Shown here: positions 26,783 to 37,816 of the stretch, piece by piece
Layout of the letters: every line of letters starts with the position of its first letter
How positions within the stretch are numbered: the first letter of the stretch is position 1
Assembly: GCA_000004695.1 (NCBI GenBank)
Contig: CM000150.2
Span: 224,001-288,000 of the forward strand
Direction of reading: 5' to 3'
Length of the DNA stretch: 64,000 bases
Origin: Dictyostelium discoideum
Lineage: Eukaryota
Notes under the pieces: generated by a model
Databases searched by the model: none
What the model was told of the DNA's origin: nothing
What the model saw: only the letters and a program-made list of their open reading frames with translations
Program-made: the position numbers and the translations under genes

Positions 26783-27043
26783 CCAGATAATTCATCATCA
26801 TCATTATCATTATCATTAATTGATTTAAAAAATCAAATCAATAAAATTATTAAAAATGATATGGATTTTTATTCAGAATTAACAAAAATTATAATTGTTC
26901 CTCAACTACCAAAGACAAAAAGTGGTAAAATTCCAAGATCGATAGTTTCAAAGTTTTTAAATGAACCAAATTATCAATTACATGAATCATGTGATCATGA
27001 AGTTTTTTACTTAATAAAAGAGTTATATGTAGAAAATAATTAG
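24894..27043 (+). CDS. Short-chain acyl-CoA synthetase (acetyl/propionyl-CoA synthetase, ACSS-like, AMP-binding superfamily) with internal poly-Gln tract; join(24894..24997,25093..27043)
   Basis: Exon 1 ends ...ISFWDEVAKKFVHW. Exon 2 continues DKIYDKVYSGDEIYPDWFQGGELNTCYNVLDKQV, the ACSS N-domain pattern W..PY.KV...WF.GG.LN.CYN.LD. The AMP-binding core is IHFTSGTTGNAKAVV, with linker/A8 GEIVFKLPMPP and the ATP-binding Lys in LPKTKSGKIPRS. The intron is GTATGT..AAAG in phase 2. A (CAA)32 tract encodes Q32 at 26689-26783. Confidence 0.75.
26689..26783 (+). repeat. Pure (CAA)n trinucleotide repeat (~32 units) encoding poly-Gln inside the acyl-CoA synthetase CDS
   Basis: An uninterrupted CAACAACAA... 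run is visible in the sequence. It stays in frame within the CDS. Confidence 0.9.
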
Positions 27044-27536
27044 TATTGTTTTTTTTTTTTTAACATTTAATAATCCAAAAATTATAATAAAATTATTAAA
27101 ACTTATTTTATAAACAAAATGTTCAATTATTTATATTTTCAAATTTAAGTTAATCTTTTTTTTAAAAAATGGATAGTTTTTATATGTTTTAAAATTGTTT
27201 TTTTTTTTTTTTTTTTTTATATTCACCCACCCCAAAACTAGATATTAAAATTAATTTTTTACTCTCAAATTTATTATTAAAATACATAAAAATAAAAAAG
27301 AGTGAAAATTTTGAATGGAAATAAATTAAATGTAAAAATATATTTTTACCTTTAAATCTTTCTTTATTACAATTTTAAAATAATAAAACAAGAGGAATTA
27401 AGATCAAAATAATAATATTAAAAAAAAAGAAATGGAATAAAATAAAATAAAATAAAATAAAATAAAATAAAATAAAATAAAATCATTTTTTTTTTTTTTT
27501 TTTTTTTTTTTTATATGATATTTTTTATTGTGTTCA

Positions 27537-27652
27537 CTAAACAACACTAAGAAGAGCTAATAAAACAAAAGAAAGAACAGCAATTGAAAACTTTAAGAAA
27601 GTTGTTGAAGAAGGACTTGTCGAAGAGGGTATATTTGGTTGCTGTTGAATTG

Positions 27653-27683
<31 letters not shown>

Positions 27684-27726
27684 TTGTTGTTGCTGTTGTT
27701 GTTGTAGAATTGGTTGTTGTTGTTGC

Positions 27727-27757
<31 letters not shown>

Positions 27758-28874
27758 GCTTTAAATTATTATTATTAAATTGATAATTATTTGATAATAA
27801 ATGTTGTTTTTCAGAGAATTGAGAAGCATGAATTGAAGGTAAAGGATAAATTATAGAGAAAATTTGAAGAGGATATTTTGGATTATCGATTGAGCCAATT
27901 AAAAGAAAACTAATAGTACATGGACTATCATAGATTGGATGTAAATTTTCAGGCAAGGTTAATTGTTTTTTTTCGTTATCAGTCTCGTGAATGAAAACTT
28001 GATATGGATTTGATTTTGGTATTGAGATAAAGTTTGTAGAGGCACCAAAACTTTTACTCCTCATATGATTACGATCACCAATGTACTCTACATTTGAAAA
28101 CAGTGTGGCGGCATTCACCAAACTAAAATCAACACCAACTCTAACATCTGCTGAACAATGAATAAATCTAAGTGTAGTTCTCTTTTTTAATGATGGAAAA
28201 TTAAAATTATCTGATAAAATTGTTATTGAATAATTTGATCCATCATCATCAATATCTTCATCACTATTATTATTATTGCTATTATTTTTATTATCTTCTT
28301 CCTGTTTTTGCTCTTCTTGTTTTTTAAAAATACCAGTAGTAATTAAAGTATAGTCTGTATCATTTTCAATTTGAAAACGTTTAAATTCTAAATGTTTTTT
28401 TGATTTTGAATCATACAAATCAATTTGTATTAAACCAATAGGTATTGTTATATATTCTGAAACTGATAGATAGGCTAAGTTTTTAAATGAAACACTATTA
28501 TTAAAAACTATATCAACACCATCACTTTCAATCACTGTATTAATTATTTTAATCTTTGAATATAATTTAATTTGTTCTTGTTGTTGTTCTTGTTGTTCTA
28601 CCAGTTTATCGTTATTTAAATTTAAGTTTAAAATATTATAAAAATTATTATTATTATTATTTCCGTTATTATTATTATTATTATTATTATAGTACGCGTT
28701 TACTTTTATATGTGATGATAATATTACTATTGCCAATATTATCATTAAAAAACTATATATATTCTTTTTATTTGGTATTATTATATTTATTATTGTATCC
28801 TCCGTTTTCCTTTTAAAATTAGTAACCCTATACTCTTCATTGTTAGAAATGTTTTTAATGAAAGATAATTTCAT
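27537..28874 (-). CDS. Secreted/GPI-anchored cell-surface protein, DUF4397-like domain, poly-Gln tail; single exon
   Basis: The ATG is at 28874. There is an N-terminal hydrophobic signal/anchor (YSFLMIILAIVILSSHIKVNA). The central region LRFIHCSADVRVGVDF...SIPKSNPYQVFIHETDN resembles the bacterial/eukaryotic DUF4397 repeat (RFVHASPDAP.VDV). The C-terminus is Ser-rich followed by hydrophobic FLKFSIAVLSFVLLALLSVV, typical of a GPI-attachment signal. Confidence 0.5.
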
Positions 28875-29184
28875 TTGTCGTTTAACAATTGGGTTATTGT
28901 TATTTATTTATTATTTATTATTATTATTTACTATTATGATTATTATTGTTGATTATTATAATTATTATTATTACTATTATTATAATTATTATTATTTATC
29001 GTTCATTCAACCTATTTAACCGACCAAATGGAAATTTCCTTTTTTTTTTTTCCTTTTTTTTTTTTTTTTTTTTTTCTTTTTTTTTTTTTTTGAAAAATTA
29101 AAAATAAATTAATTAAATTGTAATAAAAATAAAAAAGAAAAAATAAAAAAATAAAAAAAATAAAAAAAATAAAAAATAAATTTA

Positions 29185-29218
<34 letters not shown>

Positions 29219-29566
29219 TAATTATTTGTTTGAGGAAAAAAAGACAAAAAATTTTTACCTACGATATAAAATAAAAATAGTAAATAAATAGTACTAATTC
29301 ACATGTGGGTTATGAAAATAAAAACAAAAAAAAATGTTTAATAATAATAATAATAATAATAATATAAAAATGTAAATTATTAAAAATAAAAGAAAAAAAA
29401 AAAGAAATCAAAATAATATATATTATTTATTATTTATTTTTATTATTGTTATGATTATTATTATTTTTATTATTACTATTATTTTTATTATGATGATTTA
29501 TTATTTTTAATATTTCTTAATAATCTAATAAATGCATATAAATCTTTATCTAATCTTTTTTGTGGA

Positions 29567-29598
<32 letters not shown>

Positions 29599-30496
29599 AA
29601 ATCAAAAATAGAAAAAAAAACAAAAAAACAAAAAAACAAAAAACAAAAAAAAAAATGAATAAATGCAAATAAATTGTTGGTTGATGAAATAAAATAATAA
29701 AAAAATAAAAATAAAAATATAAATAAAATAAAATAAATTAATAAAAGGACAAACTTCTCTTAATTTAAGGTGCTTTTTTAATAGAAATAAATTTTAAACA
29801 ATTTTTTTTTAAAAAAAAAAAACCAAAATAATTAAATAAAAAAAGAAAAAAGAAAAAAGAAAAAAAAATAAATAGAAATAAATTATTACTTTTTTTTTAT
29901 TTGTTTAAATTTTTATTTGTTTTTTTTTTTTATAAATATATTTTTTTTTTTTTCTTTTTTTTTATTTTTTTTTTTATATTTAAACAAAAATATGTCGATA
30001 GCCACATAGACAACTAACCAACTATGTGTTTATGTTAAAACCGACAAAAAAATAAAAAAAAAAAAAAATGAAAAAAAAAAAAAAAAAAAGTGAAAAAATA
30101 AGTTATATCGTTGATTTGCCTACTTTTGCAAGAAAACCATTTAACCTAATATAACCATCAAAACATTTTTTATTTTTTTATTTTTATTTTTATTTTTTTA
30201 TTTTTATTTTTTATTTTTTTTTCTTGGCTGAACAGGAAGTTTTTTTTTTTTTTTTTTTTTTTTTTCCTGATTCTAAACAAAAAATTTAATTTATTTCCAA
30301 AGCTTAAAAAAAGAAATAAAAAAAAACCTAAAATTGCCAAATCAAGAAGTTATTATTATTATTATCATCATCATTATTTTCTTTAAATACTATTACTTTT
30401 TTTATTTTTTTTATTTTTTTTAATTTTTTTTTTTTGTTTGTTTAATTTTTTATTTTTTAATTTTCTTTTTTTTTTTTTATTTTTTTTTGTGTCGCT

Positions 30497-31225
30497 TTAT
30501 TGTTTGTCAGATTCTTGTTTACTATCAAATACCTTCCATTTTCCATATCTACCTAATTGTGTGAGTTGAGCAACTTCATTAGCTACATGGCAACCTAAAA
30601 GCCAATAATTTGGTGGGTAAATGGCAATAGCCCATCTCATAAATACAGCACTATATACAGCAAGGGCTATTTATTTTATTTTTTTTTATTTTTTTATTAT
30701 TTTTTTTTTTTTGTAAAAATTACATTAATCAATCAAATCTATTTAATTATTATATTGTTATATTATTTATTATATTATTATATTACTATATTACTATATT
30801 ATTATATTGCTATATTACTATATTACTATTTATTATTTATTATTTATTATTTATTATTAATTATTGATTATTATTGATTATTTGGTATCGGAGTTAATAA
30901 TTTTACGTACTAGTTGTCATTATAGGATCCACTTTTTCTGGATCATTTTTTAAATTCATAAAAGACTAAAATGGAAAATAAAATAAAAAGTGTAAGTATT
31001 GTGAATCATTGAAATCAAGTATAAAGAAGAAGATCAAAATAAAATGATGATTGGCGGGGAGAGGGAGGGGGTTTAAAAATACTTACAGCAATAGGGATTG
31101 TCCAATTTGCAGCTGCACCCAAAAAGCCTACCATTTTAGTCCATCTTTCTATAAATTGTTTGATGTTAATAACAACAGTAATATATTAATATGGGGTTTG
31201 GTCCTAAAGAAATCTTACCTGCCAT
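30497..31225 (-). CDS. mpc1: Mitochondrial pyruvate carrier subunit, MPC1-like; 4 exons complement(join(30497..30666,30911..30965,31087..31148,31219..31225)), 97 aa
   Basis: The spliced product is [97 protein letters not shown]. It aligns with human MPC1 ([72 protein letters not shown]). Exon 1 is the 7-nt ATGGCAG followed by GTAAGA. The other introns begin GTAAGT/GTACGT and end TAG. The gene is missed by the ORF track because every exon is under 60 aa. Confidence 0.7.
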
Positions 31226-31306
31226 CTCTGTTGTATGTAAAATTATGAGAATTGAAAAATAAAAAAAATAAAAAAAAAATAAAAAAAAATAAAAAATAAA
31301 AATTAG

Positions 31307-31343
<37 letters not shown>

Positions 31344-31653
31344 GTAAAAACAAAACTTAAAAAAAAAAATAACAATTACTAATTAAATTAGGAAATTGTT
31401 TGGTTGGTGTATGGATTTTAAACTTAATTATTTGCAGATTTATAAATTAATTAATATTAATTCCATTTAATATTGTTTTTTTTTTTTATTTTTGTTTTTT
31501 TAAAAAAAAAAAATTAAATTTAATTTTTTATTTTTTTTTTTGTAATGTCATCAATTTTTTATTTTTTATTTTTTATTTTTTATTTTTTATTTTTTCTTTT
31601 TTATTTTTTATTTTTTTTTTCTTTCTCCGATAGACATTAAAATTTTAAAAACA
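31226..31653. promoter_or_regulatory. Shared divergent (bidirectional) promoter region between the MPC1-like (- strand) and MPC2-like (+ strand) genes
   Basis: There are 428 bp of A/T-rich sequence between the two start codons (31225 and 31654). The genes are head-to-head. Confidence 0.4.
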
Positions 31654-32271
31654 ATGAATGCACTTAGAGGATTATTAAATAAATATACAGGTAATCAAAT
31701 TGTTTTTAGTAATAAATATGCAACCACTTTTTTTGAAAAATTCCCAAAATTAGCATTTTTAAACAATGGTAAATATTCATACATACACCTATATATAAAT
31801 AAATAAAGTGGGATTTATAAAATTCCAATTCAATAATATATTTATTAATATATTATTTTTAATTTCATATATAGTCACAAATTTAGCACCAGTAAGATAT
31901 ATTAGAATAGAAATTAGAAACACTTTTTTATTTACATAATTTATTTAGCGAGAGAAGAAAGAGGATTATTAATATTTTCTTTTTTATTATTATTATAATA
32001 GATGATGAAATGGTCACTTTCAATTGTACCAATTACACAAATTTTATCAGGAACTAAATTACCAGAAAATATAGATGTTTATCAAGCATCATCATTATGT
32101 GCTACTGGTTCAATTTGGACTTATTATGCCACATTAATTTCCCCACAAAATACAGGTACAAGAATGTTAGCAGCTTGTAATGCAGCAATGGCTGCGTGTC
32201 ATGGTTATAATATTTATCGTAGAACGAAATGGGAAAAAAGTCAAATTATACCAATCGAAAATAAAAATTAA
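31654..32271 (+). CDS. mpc2: Mitochondrial pyruvate carrier subunit, MPC2-like; join(31654..31768,31875..31891,32002..32271), ~133 aa
   Basis: Exon 3 (ORF 32002..32271) reads MMKWSLSIVPITQILSGTKLPENIDVYQASSLCATGSIWTYYATLISPQNTGTRMLAACNAAMAACHGYNIYRR. It aligns with human MPC2 (IMKWGLVCAGLADMARPAEKLSTAQSAVLMATGFIWSRYSLVIIPKNWSLFAVNFFVGAAGASQLFRIWRY). Exon 1 is MNALRGLLNKYTGNQIVFSNKYATTFFEKFPKLAFLNN with donor GTAAAT. A 17-nt micro-exon (TCACAAATTTAGCACCA, flanked by ATAG and GTAAGA) restores the frame, giving ...N-VTNLAP-MMKW..., which matches the FFWAPIMKW region. The micro-exon is the least certain element. Confidence 0.6.
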
Positions 32272-32534
32272 TTAAATGTAAAAAAAAATAAAAATAAAAA
32301 ATAAAATTAAATAACAATAAATAGCGAAAAGTTGTAATTTAAACAATATTATTCTCCTCAAAATAAAATAAAATAATATATTTATTCTCAAAATAATCCA
32401 ACATATATTGATTAGAATAGTGGATATTCATTTTTCATAATTCTATCACTTTTAAGTGTGTTAAGACAGTGTATATATATTTACAATTGAAAGAGAAAGA
32501 GAGAGAGAGAAGTTTATTTTAATTTAATTTTTAT

Positions 32535-33366
32535 TTATAATCTTCTTTTCTCTTTTTTAACAGTTTTTTTCTTTTCTTCATCTCTTTTTTGTTTTTCTAA
32601 AGCTTCTTTATCACGCTGAACTTTTTTTTGATGTTCAATCTTTGATTTCTCTCTTTTTGCTTTCTCTTCATCAGCGATTCTCTTTGCATTTAAATTTTCA
32701 CCTAAACCAGATTCAATCTTATTATCTTCAATCTTTTTCTTTTCAATATGATCAGATAAAATAATATCACCATTTTCATCAACATCTTCTTCATCATACC
32801 CATATTTTGATAATAATGCATCTCTTTTCTTTTGTTCTTCTCTTGACATTTTATGATATGGACTATTTTTTTATTTTAAAATCAAAGCAAAAAAAAAAAA
32901 ATATGATAAGATATATATATTAGTTTTTTTTTATTTTTTTATTTAAAAAATATCTTGTATTTTATTTATATATCTTGTTTTTTATTTTTATTTTTTATTT
33001 TTTTTTGTTTTTTGTTTTTACATACTTTTCATATTTTTCTTCTTCATTAATTTCAGATTGAGTTGTTTCTTTAATTTTTAATTCTTGTTCTAATTTTAAA
33101 TTTGTTAATTTTAATTTATTTTCAGTTTCTTTATCATCGATAATCTCTTTATGTCTAATTAACATTTCATTACAAAATGATGTTGAATCTTTTTCAGTTA
33201 ATGATTCAAGAAATTCACTAATTGATTCTTTTTTTTCATCATCATTAGATGATGAATCTGAAATAATACCAAATATATATTCAACAACCATTGATGAATC
33301 ATCAGTTTCAAATTCCTTTAATGATTTTTCAATATATTCTTTTAATTCTTTTTCTTTTCTACTCAT
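32535..33366 (-). CDS. CCDC43 (coiled-coil domain-containing protein 43) homologue; complement(join(32535..32862,33026..33366)), ~222 aa
   Basis: The two separate ORF-track ORFs are joined by an intron (32863-33025) with donor GTATGT and acceptor ATAG in phase 2. Exon 1 (VEYIFGIISDSSSNDDEKKESISEFLESLTEKDSTSFCNEMLIRHKE) aligns with human CCDC43 ([43 protein letters not shown]). Exon 2 (SREEQKKRDALLSKYGYDEEDVDENGD, Lys/Glu-rich tail) aligns with EEEKQRKAALLAQYADVTDEEDEADE plus the basic C-terminus. The size matches (human 224 aa). Confidence 0.6.
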
Positions 33367-33509
33367 TCTAAATAAATTTATAATTATAATGTATTATTAT
33401 TTATTTTATTATTATTATTTATTATTATTATTATTTCGTAAAAACAAAAATAAAAAAAAAAAAAAGATATTTTTTGGTGTTTTTGTGTAAATTGGGAAAA
33501 AAATTAAAA

Positions 33510-33557
<48 letters not shown>

Positions 33558-33710
33558 AAAAAACATTGAAAAACATTGAAAAACTAAAAATAATTTTAAA
33601 GGATAAAGTAATTGTTGTTTAAACTAAAAAAAAATAAATAATTGTTTATTCTTTATAAAAAAAAAAAAATAAAAAAAAATATAATATATTATTATTATTA
33701 TTAATTATTA

Positions 33711-34721
33711 TTAATCTCTCCAAGTTACATCAACTTGATCAGTTCTAAAACGTTGAGTTGTAGTTGTTTGAGATAATGGAGTTGTAGTACCATTTTTAAA
33801 AATTAAATAACCAGCCCAAGCAATCATAGCTCCATTATCAATACAATAACGTTCATCAATTGCAAATGATTTACCATTACGTTGAGAGATCATTTGTTGA
33901 ATCATCTCTTGTAAACGTTGATTACAACCAACACCACCAACTGCTAAAACTTCATTTTGACCACAATGTGCCAATGCACGTTCAGCAGTTTCAACCAACA
34001 TTGAAAATAGATGTTCTTGTAAACTATAACATAAATCTTCCACACTATGTTGAGTCTTGTTTTGTTTATTCTTTACCATACCTTCAATTGAGGAAAGTAT
34101 ACCACTGAATGATACATCCATACCTTTGGTTATATATGGTAGCTCTATTAAATTCTTACCTTTCTTTGCCAACTGTTCAATGTTGTAACCTGGTGATGGG
34201 TCATTTGGAATTTGAATTACTCTTGCGAATCTATCCAAACAATTGCCTACTGCAATATCAATGGTTTCGCCAAAGATACGATACTTTTTTAACGAGTATG
34301 AGATCACTTGGGTGTTACCACCACTAACATATAGAATTGTTGGATCAACAGCACCTGTAATTAAACGACCCATCTCTATATGAGCTATACAATGATTGAC
34401 TGCAACGATTGGTCTATCCCAAAGTTGTGATAACATTCTAACTGTAACTGCAACTGATCTCAATGGTGGTCCCATACCTGGTCCTTTTGTATATGCTAAA
34501 CAATCGATATCTGATGGTTTCAATTTCGATTCTTCCAATGATTTCTCAACTAATGATAATATAAATGATCTATGATGTTTGGCTGTATCTTTTGGTAAAA
34601 ATCCTTCTCCTGGTGGTGTTATAAATGTATGTCTAATATTTGATAAAATTGTACCATCATCTTTAACAATACCAATACCTAATTTATTGGCACTACCTTC
34701 AAATCCCATAATATATACCAT
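33711..34721 (-). CDS. osgep: tRNA N6-adenosine threonylcarbamoyltransferase Kae1/OSGEP (KEOPS complex catalytic subunit); single exon, 336 aa
   Basis: The ATG is at 34721. [15 protein letters not shown] matches the Kae1 N-terminus (LGIEGSANK.GVG). Metal-binding His motifs are present ([11 protein letters not shown], ...[12 protein letters not shown]). The ASKHA/Kae1-TsaD fold is highly conserved across the full length. Confidence 0.85.
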
Positions 34722-35065
34722 TTTTCAAATTATTTCAATTATTTATTTAATTAATCTTTTAAAAAAAAAATAAAAAAATAAAAAAATAAAAAAACTAAAA
34801 AAAAAAAAAAAGTGAAAATTTTTTCATTTAATCTTTTTGTTTAAAAAAAAAAAAAAATATATTTAAAATAAAAATAAAAATTATTTTTAAAATTTAATAA
34901 ACAATAGAAATAAATGACTTTTTTTTTTTCAATAATGAGAAAAAAAATTTCTTTATTATATTTACAAGATTCTATTAATGATTATCTTTTTGATTTTTTG
35001 ATTTTAATTTTAATTATCTTTTTTTTTTTTTTTTTTTTGATTTTTTTTTTTTTTTTTTTTTTTGT

Positions 35066-36046
35066 TTAAGGAATTTCATTTAATAAATTTAAAATTTCAG
35101 TAAAAGAAGGACGTTTTAAAGGATCTTGATGCCAACAAGCTTGAATTAAATGAGATAATTGATAAGGCCAAGCATTTGGAATTGGTGGACGTAATGATTT
35201 TGTAGTGACAGCCAAAGCCAATTGAACGGAATCCAAACCAGAGTAAGGTAATTCACCAGTTCCCAATTCCCAAAGGATGATACCAAATGCATAGACATCA
35301 ACTTTTTCAGTGTAATCCTCACCCATCAATAACTCTGGAGACATCCAAATTGGGGAACCAATGGATTTTGTCATTTCCGTTGATTTACTCTTTAGTTTTG
35401 ATAGACCGAAATCACAAATCTTGACATTCATATGTTCATCCAATAAAAGATTTAAACTCTTGATGTCACGATGAATGACGCCACTAAGATGAAGGTAATT
35501 CATACCTTGAGCGATTTGAATGGCCAATTTCTTGTAGAGTTGCATATTCATTTTAATCTTTTTAGAGTGTAAAGCGTCATACAATGATCCACCAGGTAAA
35601 TATTCAGTGATAAAACATAGATTTGGTGGTGCAGTACATGCTGCCATCAATAATACTATATTTGGATGTCTTAATCTAGATAGGATGGTCAATTCTTTTC
35701 TAAACTCCTCCAATACTTGATTGTTTACATCCTCATTGATTTTAATTTGTTTAATAGCAACTGAACTTCCTCTCCATAATCCTTTATATACAACTCCAAA
35801 TGTTCCTTCTCCAAGTTTACTTGATATCTTTAACTCTGAAAATGAAATTTCAATATCTGAAAAATATTGTTGTTGTTGTGACGGTGGTTCTACCACGCTA
35901 CCACTATTCTTTAATATATTACCTTGATTATTATATTGATTTGGACTATGATTATTTATTAAATGATTATTTTGATTTTGATTATGATTAAATATATTAT
36001 TTTGATTATTATTATTATTATTATTATTGTGATTATTATTGTTGTG

Positions 36047-36145
<99 letters not shown>

Positions 36146-37816
36146 TTGGTTATTATTTTGATTATTAAATTGTTGTATATTATTTAAAATGTTATTTCCT
36201 AGTGGACTATGATTAACTACATTATTATTATTAAATAAACCAAAACTATTATTAAAATTGCCATCCAATGGACTATTATTATTACTTGTATCTTCAAAAT
36301 AAATAAATGGTTGGTGTTGTGGTTGTGGTTGTGGTTGTGGTTGTTGTTGGTATTGTTGTTGTTGTTGTTGATGATGTTGTTGTTGTTGATATTGTTGCTG
36401 TTGTTGATTATTATTTTGATTATTTTGGTTGTTATTTGTTAATTCATCAATTTCAGATAAGAAAAGATGTTGGGACTCAATTGGTGGTGAGGATTGTAGT
36501 TGTGATGATGGTGGTGGTGGTGGTTTGAAAAGATTTTCAAAGGGTATAATATTTAAACCTATATATTGAACAAATTCATGAAAAGGTAAAGTTGTAAGAG
36601 GTAAAAGAGAGGCATCAGCACCAAATAAAGATAATTTTAAAGTTGAAACTCCACCGGTTTTATTATCTTTAACAGAGTTAAAAACATCTATTATATGACA
36701 TGCTTGTTGTGGTGAAAATTTACGAATATTAATATTTGTAGAACTTGCTCCATTTGCCAAACTACGTAAAATTGGTGGTGTACTAGGTATATTAATATTA
36801 TTGGTATTATTATTATTGGTATTATTATTATTATTAATATTATTAAGATTAGTATTATTAATTATTATTGTTGAACCATTATTTGAACCACCTGAACCAC
36901 TTGTACCATTACCACTACTACCTCCACTTCCACTATTACCACCACCACTACCACTATTACCACCACCACTACCACTACCACTATAGACCATTGATTTTGT
37001 ATAGGAATAAGTTTCAATCATTTGTTTAAGTGTTAATGATAATATCATATTTGGTGATTGAACTTGAGGTAAAGCATTTGGATACAATAAACCCAGTGAA
37101 AATAAAAACTGTGAATTAGGTGATGGTGAAATATCTGGATATAGACCTGTGATATATCGTATCAATTGTTGAAATGATTTTAAATAACCTTTACCTTCAT
37201 CCATTTGTGTGAAATGATGATAACAAAAATAAATCTCTTCCCATCCCATATCTTTAAAACTTCCAACACTAACATCTGATAAACTAAATTCATCAAATGA
37301 ACTATTTCTTTGATGATGTCCACGTATAAAATTCATTTTACTTTGTTGTTGTTGTTGCTGTATTTGTTGTTGTTGTTGTTGTTGTATTTGTTGTTGTTGT
37401 ATTTGTTGTTGTTGTATTTGTTGTTGCTGTATTTGTTGCTGTATTTGTTGTTGTTGTTGTTGTTGGTGTTGTATTTGATGTTGTTGTGGCTGTGGTTGAT
37501 TATTATTTTGAATGATTTGAATTTGTTGTGCTTGTTGATGTTGATGATGAGATATATGCTGTATTATATGATTTTGGTTCATGTTTGGTGATAATCCACC
37601 AAAATGTTGTTGATGAATTTGATGTTGTTGGTGTTGAAAGTTACTTATATTTATATTTATTCCATTATTATTATTACCATTGTTATTATTATTATTGTTA
37701 TTATTATTATTATTATTTAATGCATTACCACCAATTGGTGCTATGACAGGACTTGAATTCCCAAAATAAACATTTGGAACTAAATATTGGTTTTGATAGA
37801 ATCCTCCCCCTTTCAT
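35066..37816 (-). CDS. Tyrosine-kinase-like (TKL group) protein kinase with long Gln/Asn-rich N-terminal region; single exon, 916 aa
   Basis: The C-terminal catalytic domain is complete: LGEGTFGVVYKGLWRG, VAIKQI, HRDIKSLNLLL, DFGLS, SPIWMSPE, DVYAFGIILWEL. The N-terminal 600 aa are poly-N/poly-Q encoded by (AAT)n/(CAA)n. The ATG is at 37816 and the stop at 35066-35068. Confidence 0.8.

What the first reader, a model, noticed from the sequence alone, without database searches (positions are those of the whole stretch)
30497..32271. Head-to-head pair of the two mitochondrial pyruvate carrier subunit genes (MPC1-like and MPC2-like), built from micro-exons and absent from the ORF track
The two subunits of the MPC heterodimer are encoded divergently, 428 bp apart, and must share one bidirectional promoter. 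That gives built-in 1:1 co-expression of an obligate heterocomplex. Both genes are invisible to ORF-based calling: MPC1 starts with a 7-nt exon (ATGGCAG) and MPC2 needs a 17-nt micro-exon. The spliced products align convincingly with human MPC1 and MPC2 over their conserved cores.
Basis: partly seen in the sequence, partly recalled or inferred. Interest (0 to 1): 0.6.

Follow-up and report, generated by a model that had tools for sequence, protein, structure and literature searches.

The report
Divergent MPC1–MPC2 gene pair, already annotated

Summary
MPC1 lies on the minus strand in 4 exons, the first being the 7-nt ATGGCAG. MPC2 lies on the plus strand in 3 exons, the middle one 17 nt. Their start codons are 428 bp apart.

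Both spliced products are exact matches to curated D. discoideum AX4 proteins: Q55GU4.2/XP_647090.2 (MPC1) and Q55GU3/XP_647091.1 (MPC2). The genes and both micro-exons are therefore already known.

Both proteins pass Pfam PF03650. They sort cleanly to human MPC1 and MPC2, keep the substrate-pocket residues, and are under purifying selection (dN/dS about 0.09 and 0.18).

Comparative genomics validates both micro-exons. Some relatives lack a flanking intron and read exactly like the spliced product.

The head-to-head pairing holds in all six dictyostelid species checked. It also occurs in Capsaspora owczarzaki (CAOG_03656/03657, 116-bp spacer, same 17-nt micro-exon). It is absent in Pythium, a basidiomycete, trypanosomes and the long environmental contigs sampled.

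A shared bidirectional promoter is plausible from the geometry and conservation but is not shown. I found no conserved spacer motif and had no expression data. "Built-in 1:1" is an overstatement.

No paper in the searchable library mentions the arrangement. Interest is modest.

The parts
31219..31225 (-). MPC1 exon 1, 7 nt (ATGGCAG), phase-1 donor GTAAGA
   Evidence: It is needed to reach the conserved ERWTK residues of exon 2, because that frame has a stop and no ATG upstream. Relatives have ATGTCGG|GT in D. purpureum, ATGTCAG|GT in C. fasciculata and a 10-nt version in H. album. T. lacteum has the contiguous, intron-less ATGTCAGAAAAGTGG.
31087..31148 (-). MPC1 exon 2 ([21 protein letters not shown])
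   Evidence: The intron after PIA is at the same position and phase in Capsaspora MPC1.
30911..30965 (-). MPC1 exon 3 ([18 protein letters not shown])
   Evidence: The phase-1 donor position is shared with Capsaspora.
30497..30666 (-). MPC1 exon 4 with stop codon ([11 protein letters not shown]...NEVAQL...)
   Evidence: It contains a 47-aa ORF fragment.
31226..31653 (.). 428-bp divergent spacer, 11% GC, the candidate shared regulatory region
   Evidence: An A-rich run at 31255-31340 is a T-run on the MPC1 sense strand. TTTTATT repeats at 31519-31624 are a T-run on the MPC2 sense strand. A central block of higher complexity lies at about 31340-31475.
31654..31768 (+). MPC2 exon 1 (MNALRGLLNKYTGNQ...AFLNN), phase-1 donor
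   Evidence: The intron position is shared with D. purpureum, C. fasciculata, A. subglobosum, H. album and Capsaspora.
31875..31891 (+). MPC2 exon 2, a 17-nt micro-exon (TCACAAATTTAGCACCA, encoding VTNLAP)
   Evidence: The sequence is identical in D. purpureum. 17-nt exons at the same place occur in A. subglobosum, H. album and Capsaspora. In C. fasciculata and T. lacteum it is joined to a neighbouring exon, one flanking intron being absent. Skipping it shifts the frame to an early stop (frame +31602).
32002..32271 (+). MPC2 exon 3 with stop codon (MMKWSLS...PQNTGTR...CHGYNIYRR...)
   Evidence: It appears as an 89-aa ORF in the ORF listing.

Best explanation
The region holds the functional mpc1 and mpc2 genes of Dictyostelium discoideum, apparently single-copy. 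They encode the two small three-helix subunits of the heterodimeric mitochondrial pyruvate carrier.

The genes are transcribed away from each other across a 428-bp AT-rich spacer. Each needs a micro-exon to make an intact protein: a 7-nt first exon in mpc1 and a 17-nt internal exon in mpc2.

Gene identity and exon structure are shown, at a confidence of about 0.97. The following is inferred, at about 0.6: the short spacer is a shared regulatory region that couples transcription of the two partners, and this coupling is why the pairing has stayed intact throughout Dictyostelia.

Exact 1:1 stoichiometry is more likely enforced after translation. Loss of the unpartnered subunit is reported for yeast and mammalian MPC (my own knowledge, not checked here).
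For: Identity
- The products are exact matches to curated XP_647090.2/Q55GU4.2 and XP_647091.1/Q55GU3, on a 4,923,596-bp contig.
- PF03650 hits score 76 and 53 bits against a cut-off of 27.
- Protein 1 matches human MPC1 at E=7e-17, with 45% identity over 78 residues, against E=0.3 for MPC2. Protein 2 matches only MPC2, at E=2.6e-4.
- Pocket residues are kept: MPC2 K47, W83, Y86, I90, L100 and N104 correspond to human K49, W82, Y85, I89, L96 and N100. MPC1 N17, Y46, F50, L64 and H68 correspond to human N33, Y62, F66, L80 and H84 (residues from PMC12280002).
- dN/dS against D. purpureum is about 0.09 for MPC1 and 0.18 for MPC2, with dS of 0.7-0.9.
- The closest functionally tested relatives are the kinetoplastid MPC1/MPC2 of the same sequence flavour and size, 97 and 137 aa (PMC8092248).

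Micro-exons: confirmed by comparison with relatives.

Arrangement
- A divergent MPC2/MPC1 pair occurs in D. purpureum, C. fasciculata, A. subglobosum, T. lacteum and H. album. Spacers are 183-647 bp and the outer neighbours change.
- EukProt gene numbers are consecutive in two more dictyostelid-like taxa.
- The same divergent pair occurs in Capsaspora, with a 116-bp spacer.
Against: - No transcript, TSS or expression data could be consulted.
- No sequence block or motif is conserved across the spacers. The best shared 12-mer is expected about 0.13 times by chance. CCAAT occurs in 5 of 7 spacers but not in D. discoideum, and the p of about 0.04 is post hoc.
- Each gene has its own T-run on its own sense strand beside its ATG. 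That fits two abutting core promoters as well as one shared promoter.
- The pairing is dispensable elsewhere. MPC1 has no MPC2 neighbour in Pythium, Sistotremastrum or the long environmental contigs sampled, and the two genes are on different chromosomes in T. brucei.
- The AlphaFold model of MPC2 was of low confidence (pLDDT 59), so the fold search was uninformative.
Confidence: 0.75

Rival explanations
1. The genes are neighbours but are regulated independently. Two separate core promoters abut in a compact genome. The adjacency persists passively, either because a spacer of a few hundred bp offers few viable breakpoints or as a leftover of the duplication that created MPC1 and MPC2. It is not kept because of co-regulation.
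For: - A-run and T-run tracts are mirrored, one next to each ATG.
- No spacer motif is conserved.
- Spacer length varies more than fivefold, from 116 to 647 bp.
- Some other local adjacencies also survive in several species: CCDC43 next to MPC2, and DUF4397 next to MPC1.
- Many eukaryotes manage with unlinked genes.
Against: - The MPC pair is the only adjacency invariant in all dictyostelids checked. The flanking adjacencies are broken in some of them.
- The same divergent pairing occurs in Capsaspora with only 116 bp between the start codons. That leaves no room for fully separate promoters.
Confidence: 0.3
2. The micro-exon models are wrong. MPC1 really starts at the internal Met8 (MVGFLG...), and MPC2 is made without the 17-nt exon or is split into two genes.
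For: - Automated annotations of relatives made exactly these calls. D. purpureum MPC1 starts at MVGF. H. album MPC2 is split into 48-aa and 109-aa genes.
- One newer D. discoideum assembly (GCA_054883475.1, L001) calls no MPC1 gene at all.
Against: - Residues encoded upstream of Met8 (E-R/K-W-T/V-K) are conserved in all dictyostelids. They are reachable only by splicing from the 7-nt exon.
- T. lacteum and A. subglobosum encode the same N-terminus without an intron.
- VTNLAP is invariant across the MPC2 orthologues.
- C. fasciculata and T. lacteum each lack one flanking intron and read as the spliced product.
- Skipping the 17-nt exon causes a frameshift.
- The 90-aa Met8 product is not in the protein collection, whereas the 97-aa product is the curated version 2.
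Confidence: 0.03
3. The two genes are non-expressed relics, and the working MPC genes lie elsewhere in the genome.
For: None found. I could not scan the whole genome directly.
Against: - The reading frames are intact and the splice sites canonical.
- dN/dS is 0.09 and 0.18 with near-saturated dS.
- The pocket residues are kept.
- The protein searches returned only these two D. discoideum AX4 MPC proteins.
- UniProt names them MPC1 and MPC2.
Confidence: 0.01

Closest known systems
Human MPC1/MPC2 heterodimer (PDB 9MNW, 8YW6, 9O9S; MPC1L/MPC2 is 9GIV)
   Same: Same Pfam family. There is a clear one-to-one assignment: 45% identity to MPC1 and 31% to MPC2 over the core. The pyruvate/UK5099 pocket residues are conserved.
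   Different: The human genes are unlinked, on chromosomes 6 and 1 (my own knowledge). Dictyostelium MPC1 has a much shorter N-terminus. Its MPC2 carries a 3-residue insertion in each of two places, including the PQNTGTR segment.
Kinetoplastid MPC1/MPC2 (T. cruzi TcMPC1 97 aa and TcMPC2 137 aa; T. brucei Tb927.9.3780 and Tb927.7.3520)
   Same: Same sequence flavour as the Dictyostelium pair: MPC1 with GAAANW.IPIA and FMRWS.AI.P.NY, and MPC2 with VGN...F and PQN.GSR. The sizes are almost identical. The T. cruzi study reports that these subunits are needed for pyruvate-driven respiration.
   Different: The genes are on different chromosomes and lie in polycistronic units, so there is no divergent pairing.
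Capsaspora owczarzaki CAOG_03656 (MPC1) / CAOG_03657 (MPC2)
   Same: Same divergent head-to-head arrangement and same protein flavour. MPC2 has the same 17-nt micro-exon. Two MPC1 intron positions and phases are shared with D. discoideum and a third with T. lacteum MPC1.
   Different: The spacer is only 116 bp, carries two CCAAT boxes, and is flanked by A12 and T21 runs. MPC2 has an extra 13-nt exon. The organism is an opisthokont, far from Amoebozoa.
Classical divergent gene pairs for partner proteins (histone H2A-H2B and H3-H4 pairs; yeast GAL1-GAL10)
   Same: Two partners of one complex or pathway are transcribed divergently from a short shared spacer. The usual reading is coordinated expression (my own knowledge; the general literature on head-to-head pairs was listed).
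   Different: Shared elements and co-expression have been shown experimentally for those pairs. Here they have not.
Natural MPC1-linker-MPC2 single-chain proteins on environmental contigs (L041, L049, L055-L057, L068, L072, L073, L086); SWEET versus SemiSWEET as the analogy
   Same: An alternative genomic way to tie the two subunits together in equal amounts.
   Different: This is a fusion into one ORF, with a hydrophobic linker, rather than two genes. The sequences are of the human-like flavour. The source taxa are unknown.

Membership tests
Mitochondrial pyruvate carrier family (Pfam PF03650, formerly UPF0041) | Sequence match to the family profile above the curated threshold | tested here: met
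   MPC1-like scores 76 bits and MPC2-like 53 bits, against a cut-off of 27.
Mitochondrial pyruvate carrier family (Pfam PF03650, formerly UPF0041) | One MPC1-type and one MPC2-type subunit, the composition of the heterodimer | tested here: met
   Protein 1 matches human MPC1 at E=7e-17 and MPC2 at E=0.3. Protein 2 matches human MPC2 at E=2.6e-4 and has no MPC1 hit at E<=1. Local MPC1 and MPC2 HMMs separate the two cleanly.
Mitochondrial pyruvate carrier family (Pfam PF03650, formerly UPF0041) | Substrate/inhibitor pocket residues: MPC2 Lys49 and Asn100 (essential), plus Tyr85, Ile89 and Leu96; MPC1 Asn33, Tyr62, Phe66 and His84 | tested here: met
   All are conserved in the Dictyostelium proteins. 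The only changes are the conservative MPC1 F69W and V73I (residue list from PMC12280002).
Mitochondrial pyruvate carrier family (Pfam PF03650, formerly UPF0041) | Three-transmembrane-helix bundle fold | tested here: inconclusive
   The AlphaFold2 model of MPC2 has helices at 42-60, 70-87 and 95-125 but a mean pLDDT of 59. The best Foldseek hits are human MPC2 chains, at only E=0.06 and TM 0.25.
Mitochondrial pyruvate carrier family (Pfam PF03650, formerly UPF0041) | Inner-mitochondrial-membrane location, heterodimer formation and pyruvate transport | not testable with these tools
   These need localisation, pull-down and transport or yeast-complementation assays.
Bidirectional (shared) promoter gene pair | Divergent orientation with start sites less than 1 kb apart | tested here: met
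   The genes are on opposite strands with 428 bp between the ATGs. Orthologous pairs have 116-647 bp. The TSSs themselves are unknown.
Bidirectional (shared) promoter gene pair | Shared cis-regulatory elements in the spacer | tested here: inconclusive
   No block or motif is conserved across species. CCAAT occurs in 5 of 7 spacers but not in D. discoideum, and the p of about 0.04 is post hoc.
Bidirectional (shared) promoter gene pair | Correlated expression of the two genes | not testable with these tools
   No expression data were available. No paper in the library addresses it.
Conserved micro-exon | Very short exon with canonical splice sites that is needed for the reading frame and conserved in orthologues | tested here: met
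   The 17-nt exon is AG|...|GT flanked and skipping it is frame-breaking. It is present in D. purpureum, A. subglobosum, H. album and Capsaspora. The 7-nt first exon is present in D. purpureum and C. fasciculata, and is 10 nt in H. album.

The most novel reading that the evidence does not exclude
The divergent MPC1-MPC2 unit may be ancient rather than a social-amoeba peculiarity. On this reading it predates the split of Amoebozoa and Opisthokonta, and may be the original inverted-duplication arrangement of the two paralogues. Dictyostelia and Capsaspora would have retained it for more than a billion years because the shared spacer couples the two subunits, and most other lineages would have lost it.

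A related possibility is that the Dictyostelium/Capsaspora/kinetoplastid "flavour" of MPC1 and MPC2 is a distinct, co-evolving ancient pair, separate from the human/fungal flavour.
Probability: 0.25. Interest if true: 0.6.

Novelty: new member of a known kind. Interest (0 to 1): 0.3.

Why it matters
The genes themselves add nothing new. They are annotated, and their products are named MPC1 and MPC2 in UniProt.

The arrangement has some value. An obligate heterodimer whose two subunit genes stay head-to-head across the whole dictyostelid radiation, and again in a distant opisthokont, is a clean natural case for testing one question. Does a shared spacer coordinate partner-subunit expression, or is stoichiometry set only after translation?

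The spacers are small, from 116 to 647 bp, and D. discoideum is genetically tractable, so the test is easy to do.

The pair is also a practical benchmark for gene finders. The 7-nt and 17-nt exons defeated automated annotation in at least four related genomes.

The natural MPC1-MPC2 fusion proteins seen in passing could help structural and mechanistic work on the carrier.

Tried and rejected
- **Spacer motifs.** Shared k-mers between the seven spacers gave only a 12-mer, AATTATTTGCAG, shared by D. discoideum and A. subglobosum. It is expected about 0.13 times by chance, so I rejected it as evidence. CCAAT boxes are marginal, post hoc and absent from D. discoideum.
- **RNA genes.** An Rfam scan of 27000-36000 and a tRNA scan of the whole window found nothing that could explain the spacer or the flanks.
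- **First metagenome scan.** The dictyostelid MPC1 profile found no relatives.
- **Second metagenome scan.** A broader profile returned 80 loci. None had a separate MPC2 beside MPC1.
- **Structure.** The MPC2 model was of low confidence and the fold search uninformative.
- **Beetle look-up.** The last contig look-up, on a beetle MPC1 of the Dictyostelium flavour, found no record.
- **Literature.** I found no paper on head-to-head MPC genes, on Dictyostelium MPC genes, or on natural MPC fusions. A 2010 gene-order paper does not mention the family.
- **Bacterial promoter/terminator scanner.** Not used, because it does not apply to a eukaryote.
- **Pseudogene and wrong-model readings.** Rejected; see the rival explanations.
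Full report
**What is in the sequence**

The window is extremely AT-rich (23% GC). Reading 30440-32300 on both strands and assembling exons gives two genes.

On the minus strand there are four exons:
- 31219-31225 (ATGGCAG, 7 nt)
- 31087-31148
- 30911-30965
- 30497-30666, stop included

They encode 97 aa: [97 protein letters not shown].

On the plus strand there are three exons:
- 31654-31768
- 31875-31891 (TCACAAATTTAGCACCA, 17 nt)
- 32002-32271

They encode 133 aa.

All five introns begin GT and end AG. They are 70-244 nt long and 10-30% GC, against 23-57% GC for the exons.

**Identity**

Both conceptual proteins are exact, full-length matches to public entries:
- XP_647090.2 / EAL73207.2 / UniProt Q55GU4.2, "Probable mitochondrial pyruvate carrier 1"
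- XP_647091.1 / EAL73692.1 / UniProt Q55GU3, "Probable mitochondrial pyruvate carrier 2"

Both belong to Dictyostelium discoideum AX4 and sit on a 4,923,596-bp contig. The window is therefore D. discoideum, probably chromosome 1. Both gene models, micro-exons included, are already in the curated annotation.

The alternative 90-aa MPC1 that starts at the internal methionine is not in the collection.

Both proteins pass Pfam PF03650, at 76 and 53 bits against a cut-off of 27.

Searches against the PDB sort the two subunits cleanly:
- Protein 1 matches human MPC1 at E=7e-17, with 35 of 78 residues identical. It matches MPC2 only at E=0.3.
- Protein 2 matches human MPC2 at E=2.6e-4, with 22 of 72 aligned residues identical. 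It does not match MPC1 at E<=1.

The residues that line the pyruvate/UK5099 pocket in the human structure are given in PMC12280002. They are MPC2 Lys49 and Asn100 (essential), Tyr85, Ile89 and Leu96, and MPC1 Asn33, Tyr62, Phe66, Leu80 and His84. All are conserved in the Dictyostelium proteins. The only changes are the conservative MPC1 F69W and V73I.

**Are they live genes?**

I compared the coding sequences with the D. purpureum orthologues, which I reconstructed from locus L002.
- For MPC1, dN is 0.08 and dS 0.92.
- For MPC2, dN is 0.13 and dS 0.71.

These give dN/dS of about 0.09 and 0.18, which is strong purifying selection.

The protein searches found no other D. discoideum AX4 member of the family. 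The "relic" reading is rejected.

**The micro-exons**

*MPC1, 7 nt.* Exon 2 encodes E-R-W-T-K ahead of the internal Met8. In that frame there is a stop and no ATG upstream, so an upstream ATG exon is required. The residues (A/S)E(R/K)W(T/V)K are conserved in the other dictyostelid MPC1 proteins.

The genomic sequences of relatives settle the point:

| Species | Sequence at the MPC1 start |
|---|---|
| D. purpureum | ATGTCGG\|GTATGT...AG\|AAAGATGG |
| C. fasciculata | ATGTCAG\|GTATGT...AG\|AAAAGTGG |
| H. album | 10-nt first exon, ATGGCATCAG\|GT |
| T. lacteum | ATGTCAGAAAAGTGG, no intron |
| A. subglobosum | ATGTCAGGAGAGAGATGG, no intron |

The two intron-less genes read exactly like the spliced product.

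*MPC2, 17 nt.* The encoded VTNLAP is invariant across the dictyostelid MPC2 proteins. Skipping the exon shifts the frame to a stop after 18 codons.

The relatives give the following:

| Species | State of the 17-nt exon |
|---|---|
| D. purpureum | Present, identical sequence |
| A. subglobosum | Present (TTACAAACCTGGCACCT) |
| H. album | Present (TTACTAATTTGGCACCT) |
| C. fasciculata | Downstream intron absent |
| T. lacteum | Upstream intron absent |
| Capsaspora owczarzaki | Present at the same position and phase (TGACCTACAGCGCTCCG) |

My reconstruction of the Capsaspora protein is exactly XP_004363385.1.

Two MPC1 intron positions and phases are also shared between Capsaspora and D. discoideum. 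A third is shared with T. lacteum. Both micro-exons are therefore real, and the 17-nt exon is old.

*"Invisible to ORF calling."* This is partly right. MPC1's longest ORF piece is 47 aa. The last exon of MPC2 is an 89-aa ORF that a 60-aa ORF list does show.

Automated annotation did stumble on these genes:
- One newer D. discoideum assembly (GCA_054883475.1, L001) calls MPC2 but no MPC1, although the MPC1 exons are there.
- No MPC1 protein from the newer D. citrinum, D. firmibasis or D. cf. discoideum assemblies turned up, although their MPC2 proteins are in the collection.
- The D. purpureum MPC1 model starts at the internal Met.
- The H. album annotation splits MPC2 into 48-aa and 109-aa genes and fuses MPC1 to the neighbouring DUF4397 gene.

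**The arrangement in other genomes**

The divergent MPC2/MPC1 pair is present in every dictyostelid genome I could fetch. ATG-to-ATG spacers are listed below.

| Species | Spacer (bp) |
|---|---|
| D. discoideum | 428 |
| D. purpureum | 381 |
| C. fasciculata | 647 |
| A. subglobosum | 305 |
| T. lacteum | 183 |
| H. album | 476 |

Two further dictyostelid-like EukProt gene sets have consecutive gene numbers for the two proteins: gene520/521 and gene13008/13009.

The outer neighbours change from genome to genome. They include CCDC43, TsaD, CMAS, an amine oxidase, DUF4397 and others. Some of these adjacencies survive in a subset of species, but only the MPC pair is invariant.

Outside Dictyostelia the picture is mixed:
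- Capsaspora owczarzaki, a filasterean opisthokont, has the same divergent pair: CAOG_03657 (MPC2-type) and CAOG_03656 (MPC1-type), with only 116 bp between the start codons.
- MPC1 has no MPC2 neighbour in Pythium oligandrum or the basidiomycete Sistotremastrum suecicum.
- The same holds for two environmental contigs looked up directly and for the 80 environmental MPC1 loci fetched from metagenomes.
- In T. brucei the two genes are on chromosomes 9 and 7 (PMC8092248).

The pairing is thus a recurrent but not general solution. Chance adjacency of two specified genes in divergent orientation is about 1/(2N genes), a few in 100,000 per genome (my estimate). Two independent chance events are therefore excluded. 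The choice is between shared ancestry with many losses and convergence under similar selection, and my sampling cannot decide between them.

**How it most likely works**

The proteins are the two subunits of a heterodimeric carrier. This follows from the family assignment and the conserved pocket. It is also supported by the functionally tested kinetoplastid pair, which has the same sequence flavour and size.

The spacer has a mirrored layout:
- An A-rich run at 31255-31340, including about 35 consecutive A, is a T-run on the MPC1 sense strand.
- TTTTATT repeats at 31519-31624 are a T-run on the MPC2 sense strand.
- A central block of about 135 bp with higher complexity lies between them.

D. 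purpureum and Capsaspora show the same mirrored A-run and T-run layout. Oligo(dT) tracts just upstream of transcription starts are a classical feature of Dictyostelium promoters (my own knowledge, Kimmel and Firtel 1983; not checked here).

This geometry fits one nucleosome-free region that fires in both directions. It equally fits two abutting core promoters.

I found no conserved motif. The best shared 12-mer is expected about 0.13 times by chance. CCAAT boxes occur in 5 of 7 spacers, twice in the 116-bp Capsaspora spacer, but not in D. discoideum or C. fasciculata, and the p of about 0.04 is post hoc.

Co-regulation from a shared spacer is therefore an inference from geometry and evolutionary persistence, not a demonstration. 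"Built-in 1:1 co-expression" overstates it. A shared promoter gives correlated transcription at most, and the final stoichiometry probably depends on instability of the unpartnered subunit (my own knowledge from yeast and mammals).

**Comparison with what is known, and novelty**

The genes, proteins and exon structures are already known. The adjacency is implicit in the consecutive accession numbers.

I found no paper in the searchable library that mentions a head-to-head MPC1/MPC2 arrangement in any organism, or that studies the Dictyostelium MPC genes at all.

Divergent pairs encoding partner proteins are a well-known kind of arrangement; histone pairs are the classic case. This is best filed as a new, conserved member of that kind.

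The most novel reading still open is that the unit is ancestral to Amoebozoa plus Opisthokonta. I put that at about 0.25.

**Things seen in passing**

- Nine environmental contigs carry a single intron-less ORF with an MPC1 domain, a 40-90-aa linker containing a hydrophobic Gly/Ala-rich stretch, and an MPC2 domain. A tenth such protein, P0143 (245 aa), appeared in the representative search. These look like natural single-chain MPCs. I found no literature on them.
- MPC1 and MPC2 sequences fall into two flavours that travel together. One occurs in Dictyostelia, Capsaspora, Corallochytrium, ichthyosporeans, kinetoplastids and Euglena. The other occurs in human, fungi, an oomycete and the fusions.

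**Verdict**

The genes are already annotated. The conserved divergent pairing is a modestly interesting, easily testable case. Interest 0.3.

Noticed in passing
L056 7327-8097 (+), L073 9878-10804 (+), L049 191-904, L057 6601-7344, L072 318-1274, L055 1379-2185, L041 1-873, L068 57-752, L086 29-772; also protein P0143: Environmental contigs carry single intron-less ORFs of 232-319 aa. Each has an N-terminal MPC1 domain, a 40-90-aa linker with a hydrophobic Gly/Ala-rich stretch (possibly an extra membrane helix, giving a SWEET-like 3+1+3 layout), and a C-terminal MPC2 domain. These look like natural single-chain MPCs. The source taxa are unknown, and I found no paper on them in the library.
   Followed up: partly
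L009 4000-5944 (Capsaspora owczarzaki KE346364.1): CAOG_03657 (MPC2) and CAOG_03656 (MPC1) are head-to-head with 116 bp between the start codons. The spacer has two CCAAT boxes between an A12 run and a T21 run. MPC2 has the same 17-nt micro-exon plus a 13-nt exon.
   Followed up: yes
Alignment A2; proteins P0114-P0136: MPC subunits come in two sequence flavours that co-occur. The first has MPC1 with [11 protein letters not shown] / FMRWSIAI.PPNY paired with MPC2 carrying VGN..F and PQN.GSR. It occurs in Dictyostelia, Capsaspora, Corallochytrium, ichthyosporeans, kinetoplastids, Euglena and one beetle isoform. The second is the human/fungal/oomycete flavour, [13 protein letters not shown] / FMRFA..V.PRN. 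This may reflect two ancient co-evolving pairs, or rate differences. No phylogeny was made.
   Followed up: partly
L001 4854-5579; L002 4898-5397; L006 3646-5264: Annotation errors in relatives, caused by the micro-exons. Assembly GCA_054883475.1 has no MPC1 gene model although the exons are present. D. purpureum MPC1 (DICPUDRAFT_29915) is truncated at both ends. In H. album, MPC2 is split into 48-aa and 109-aa genes and MPC1 is fused to the DUF4397 neighbour.
   Followed up: yes
window 31053-31071 (inside MPC1 intron 2): A G-rich element, GGCGGGGAGAGGGAGGGGG on the plus strand, sits in an otherwise AT-rich intron. It is one of only four 19-mers in the 64-kb window with at least 13 G or C on one strand. 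It is identical in a second D. discoideum strain (L001) and absent from the D. purpureum intron. Its function is unknown.
   Followed up: partly
window 29985-30300: An island of higher sequence complexity lies in the 1.6-kb AT-rich gap between the MPC1 3' end and the start of the upstream 445-aa gene (27537-28874, minus strand). It includes CAGGAAG-T26-CCTG at about 30232-30270. It has no tRNA and no Rfam match at E<=1, and remains unexplained.
   Followed up: partly
window 32535-37816 (minus strand): Downstream neighbours of MPC2 are a two-exon CCDC43-like gene (32535-32849 and 32995-33366), a Kae1/TsaD-like gene (33711-34721) and a 916-aa protein kinase with long Asn/Gln runs (35066-37816). 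CCDC43 lies next to MPC2 in D. purpureum and T. lacteum as well.
   Followed up: no
window 31426-31441; L004 spacer position 183: A 12-mer, AATTATTTGCAG, is shared between the D. discoideum and A. subglobosum spacers, and CAGATTTAT is shared with C. fasciculata. About 0.13 such matches are expected by chance, so this is only a weak lead for a shared element.
   Followed up: partly
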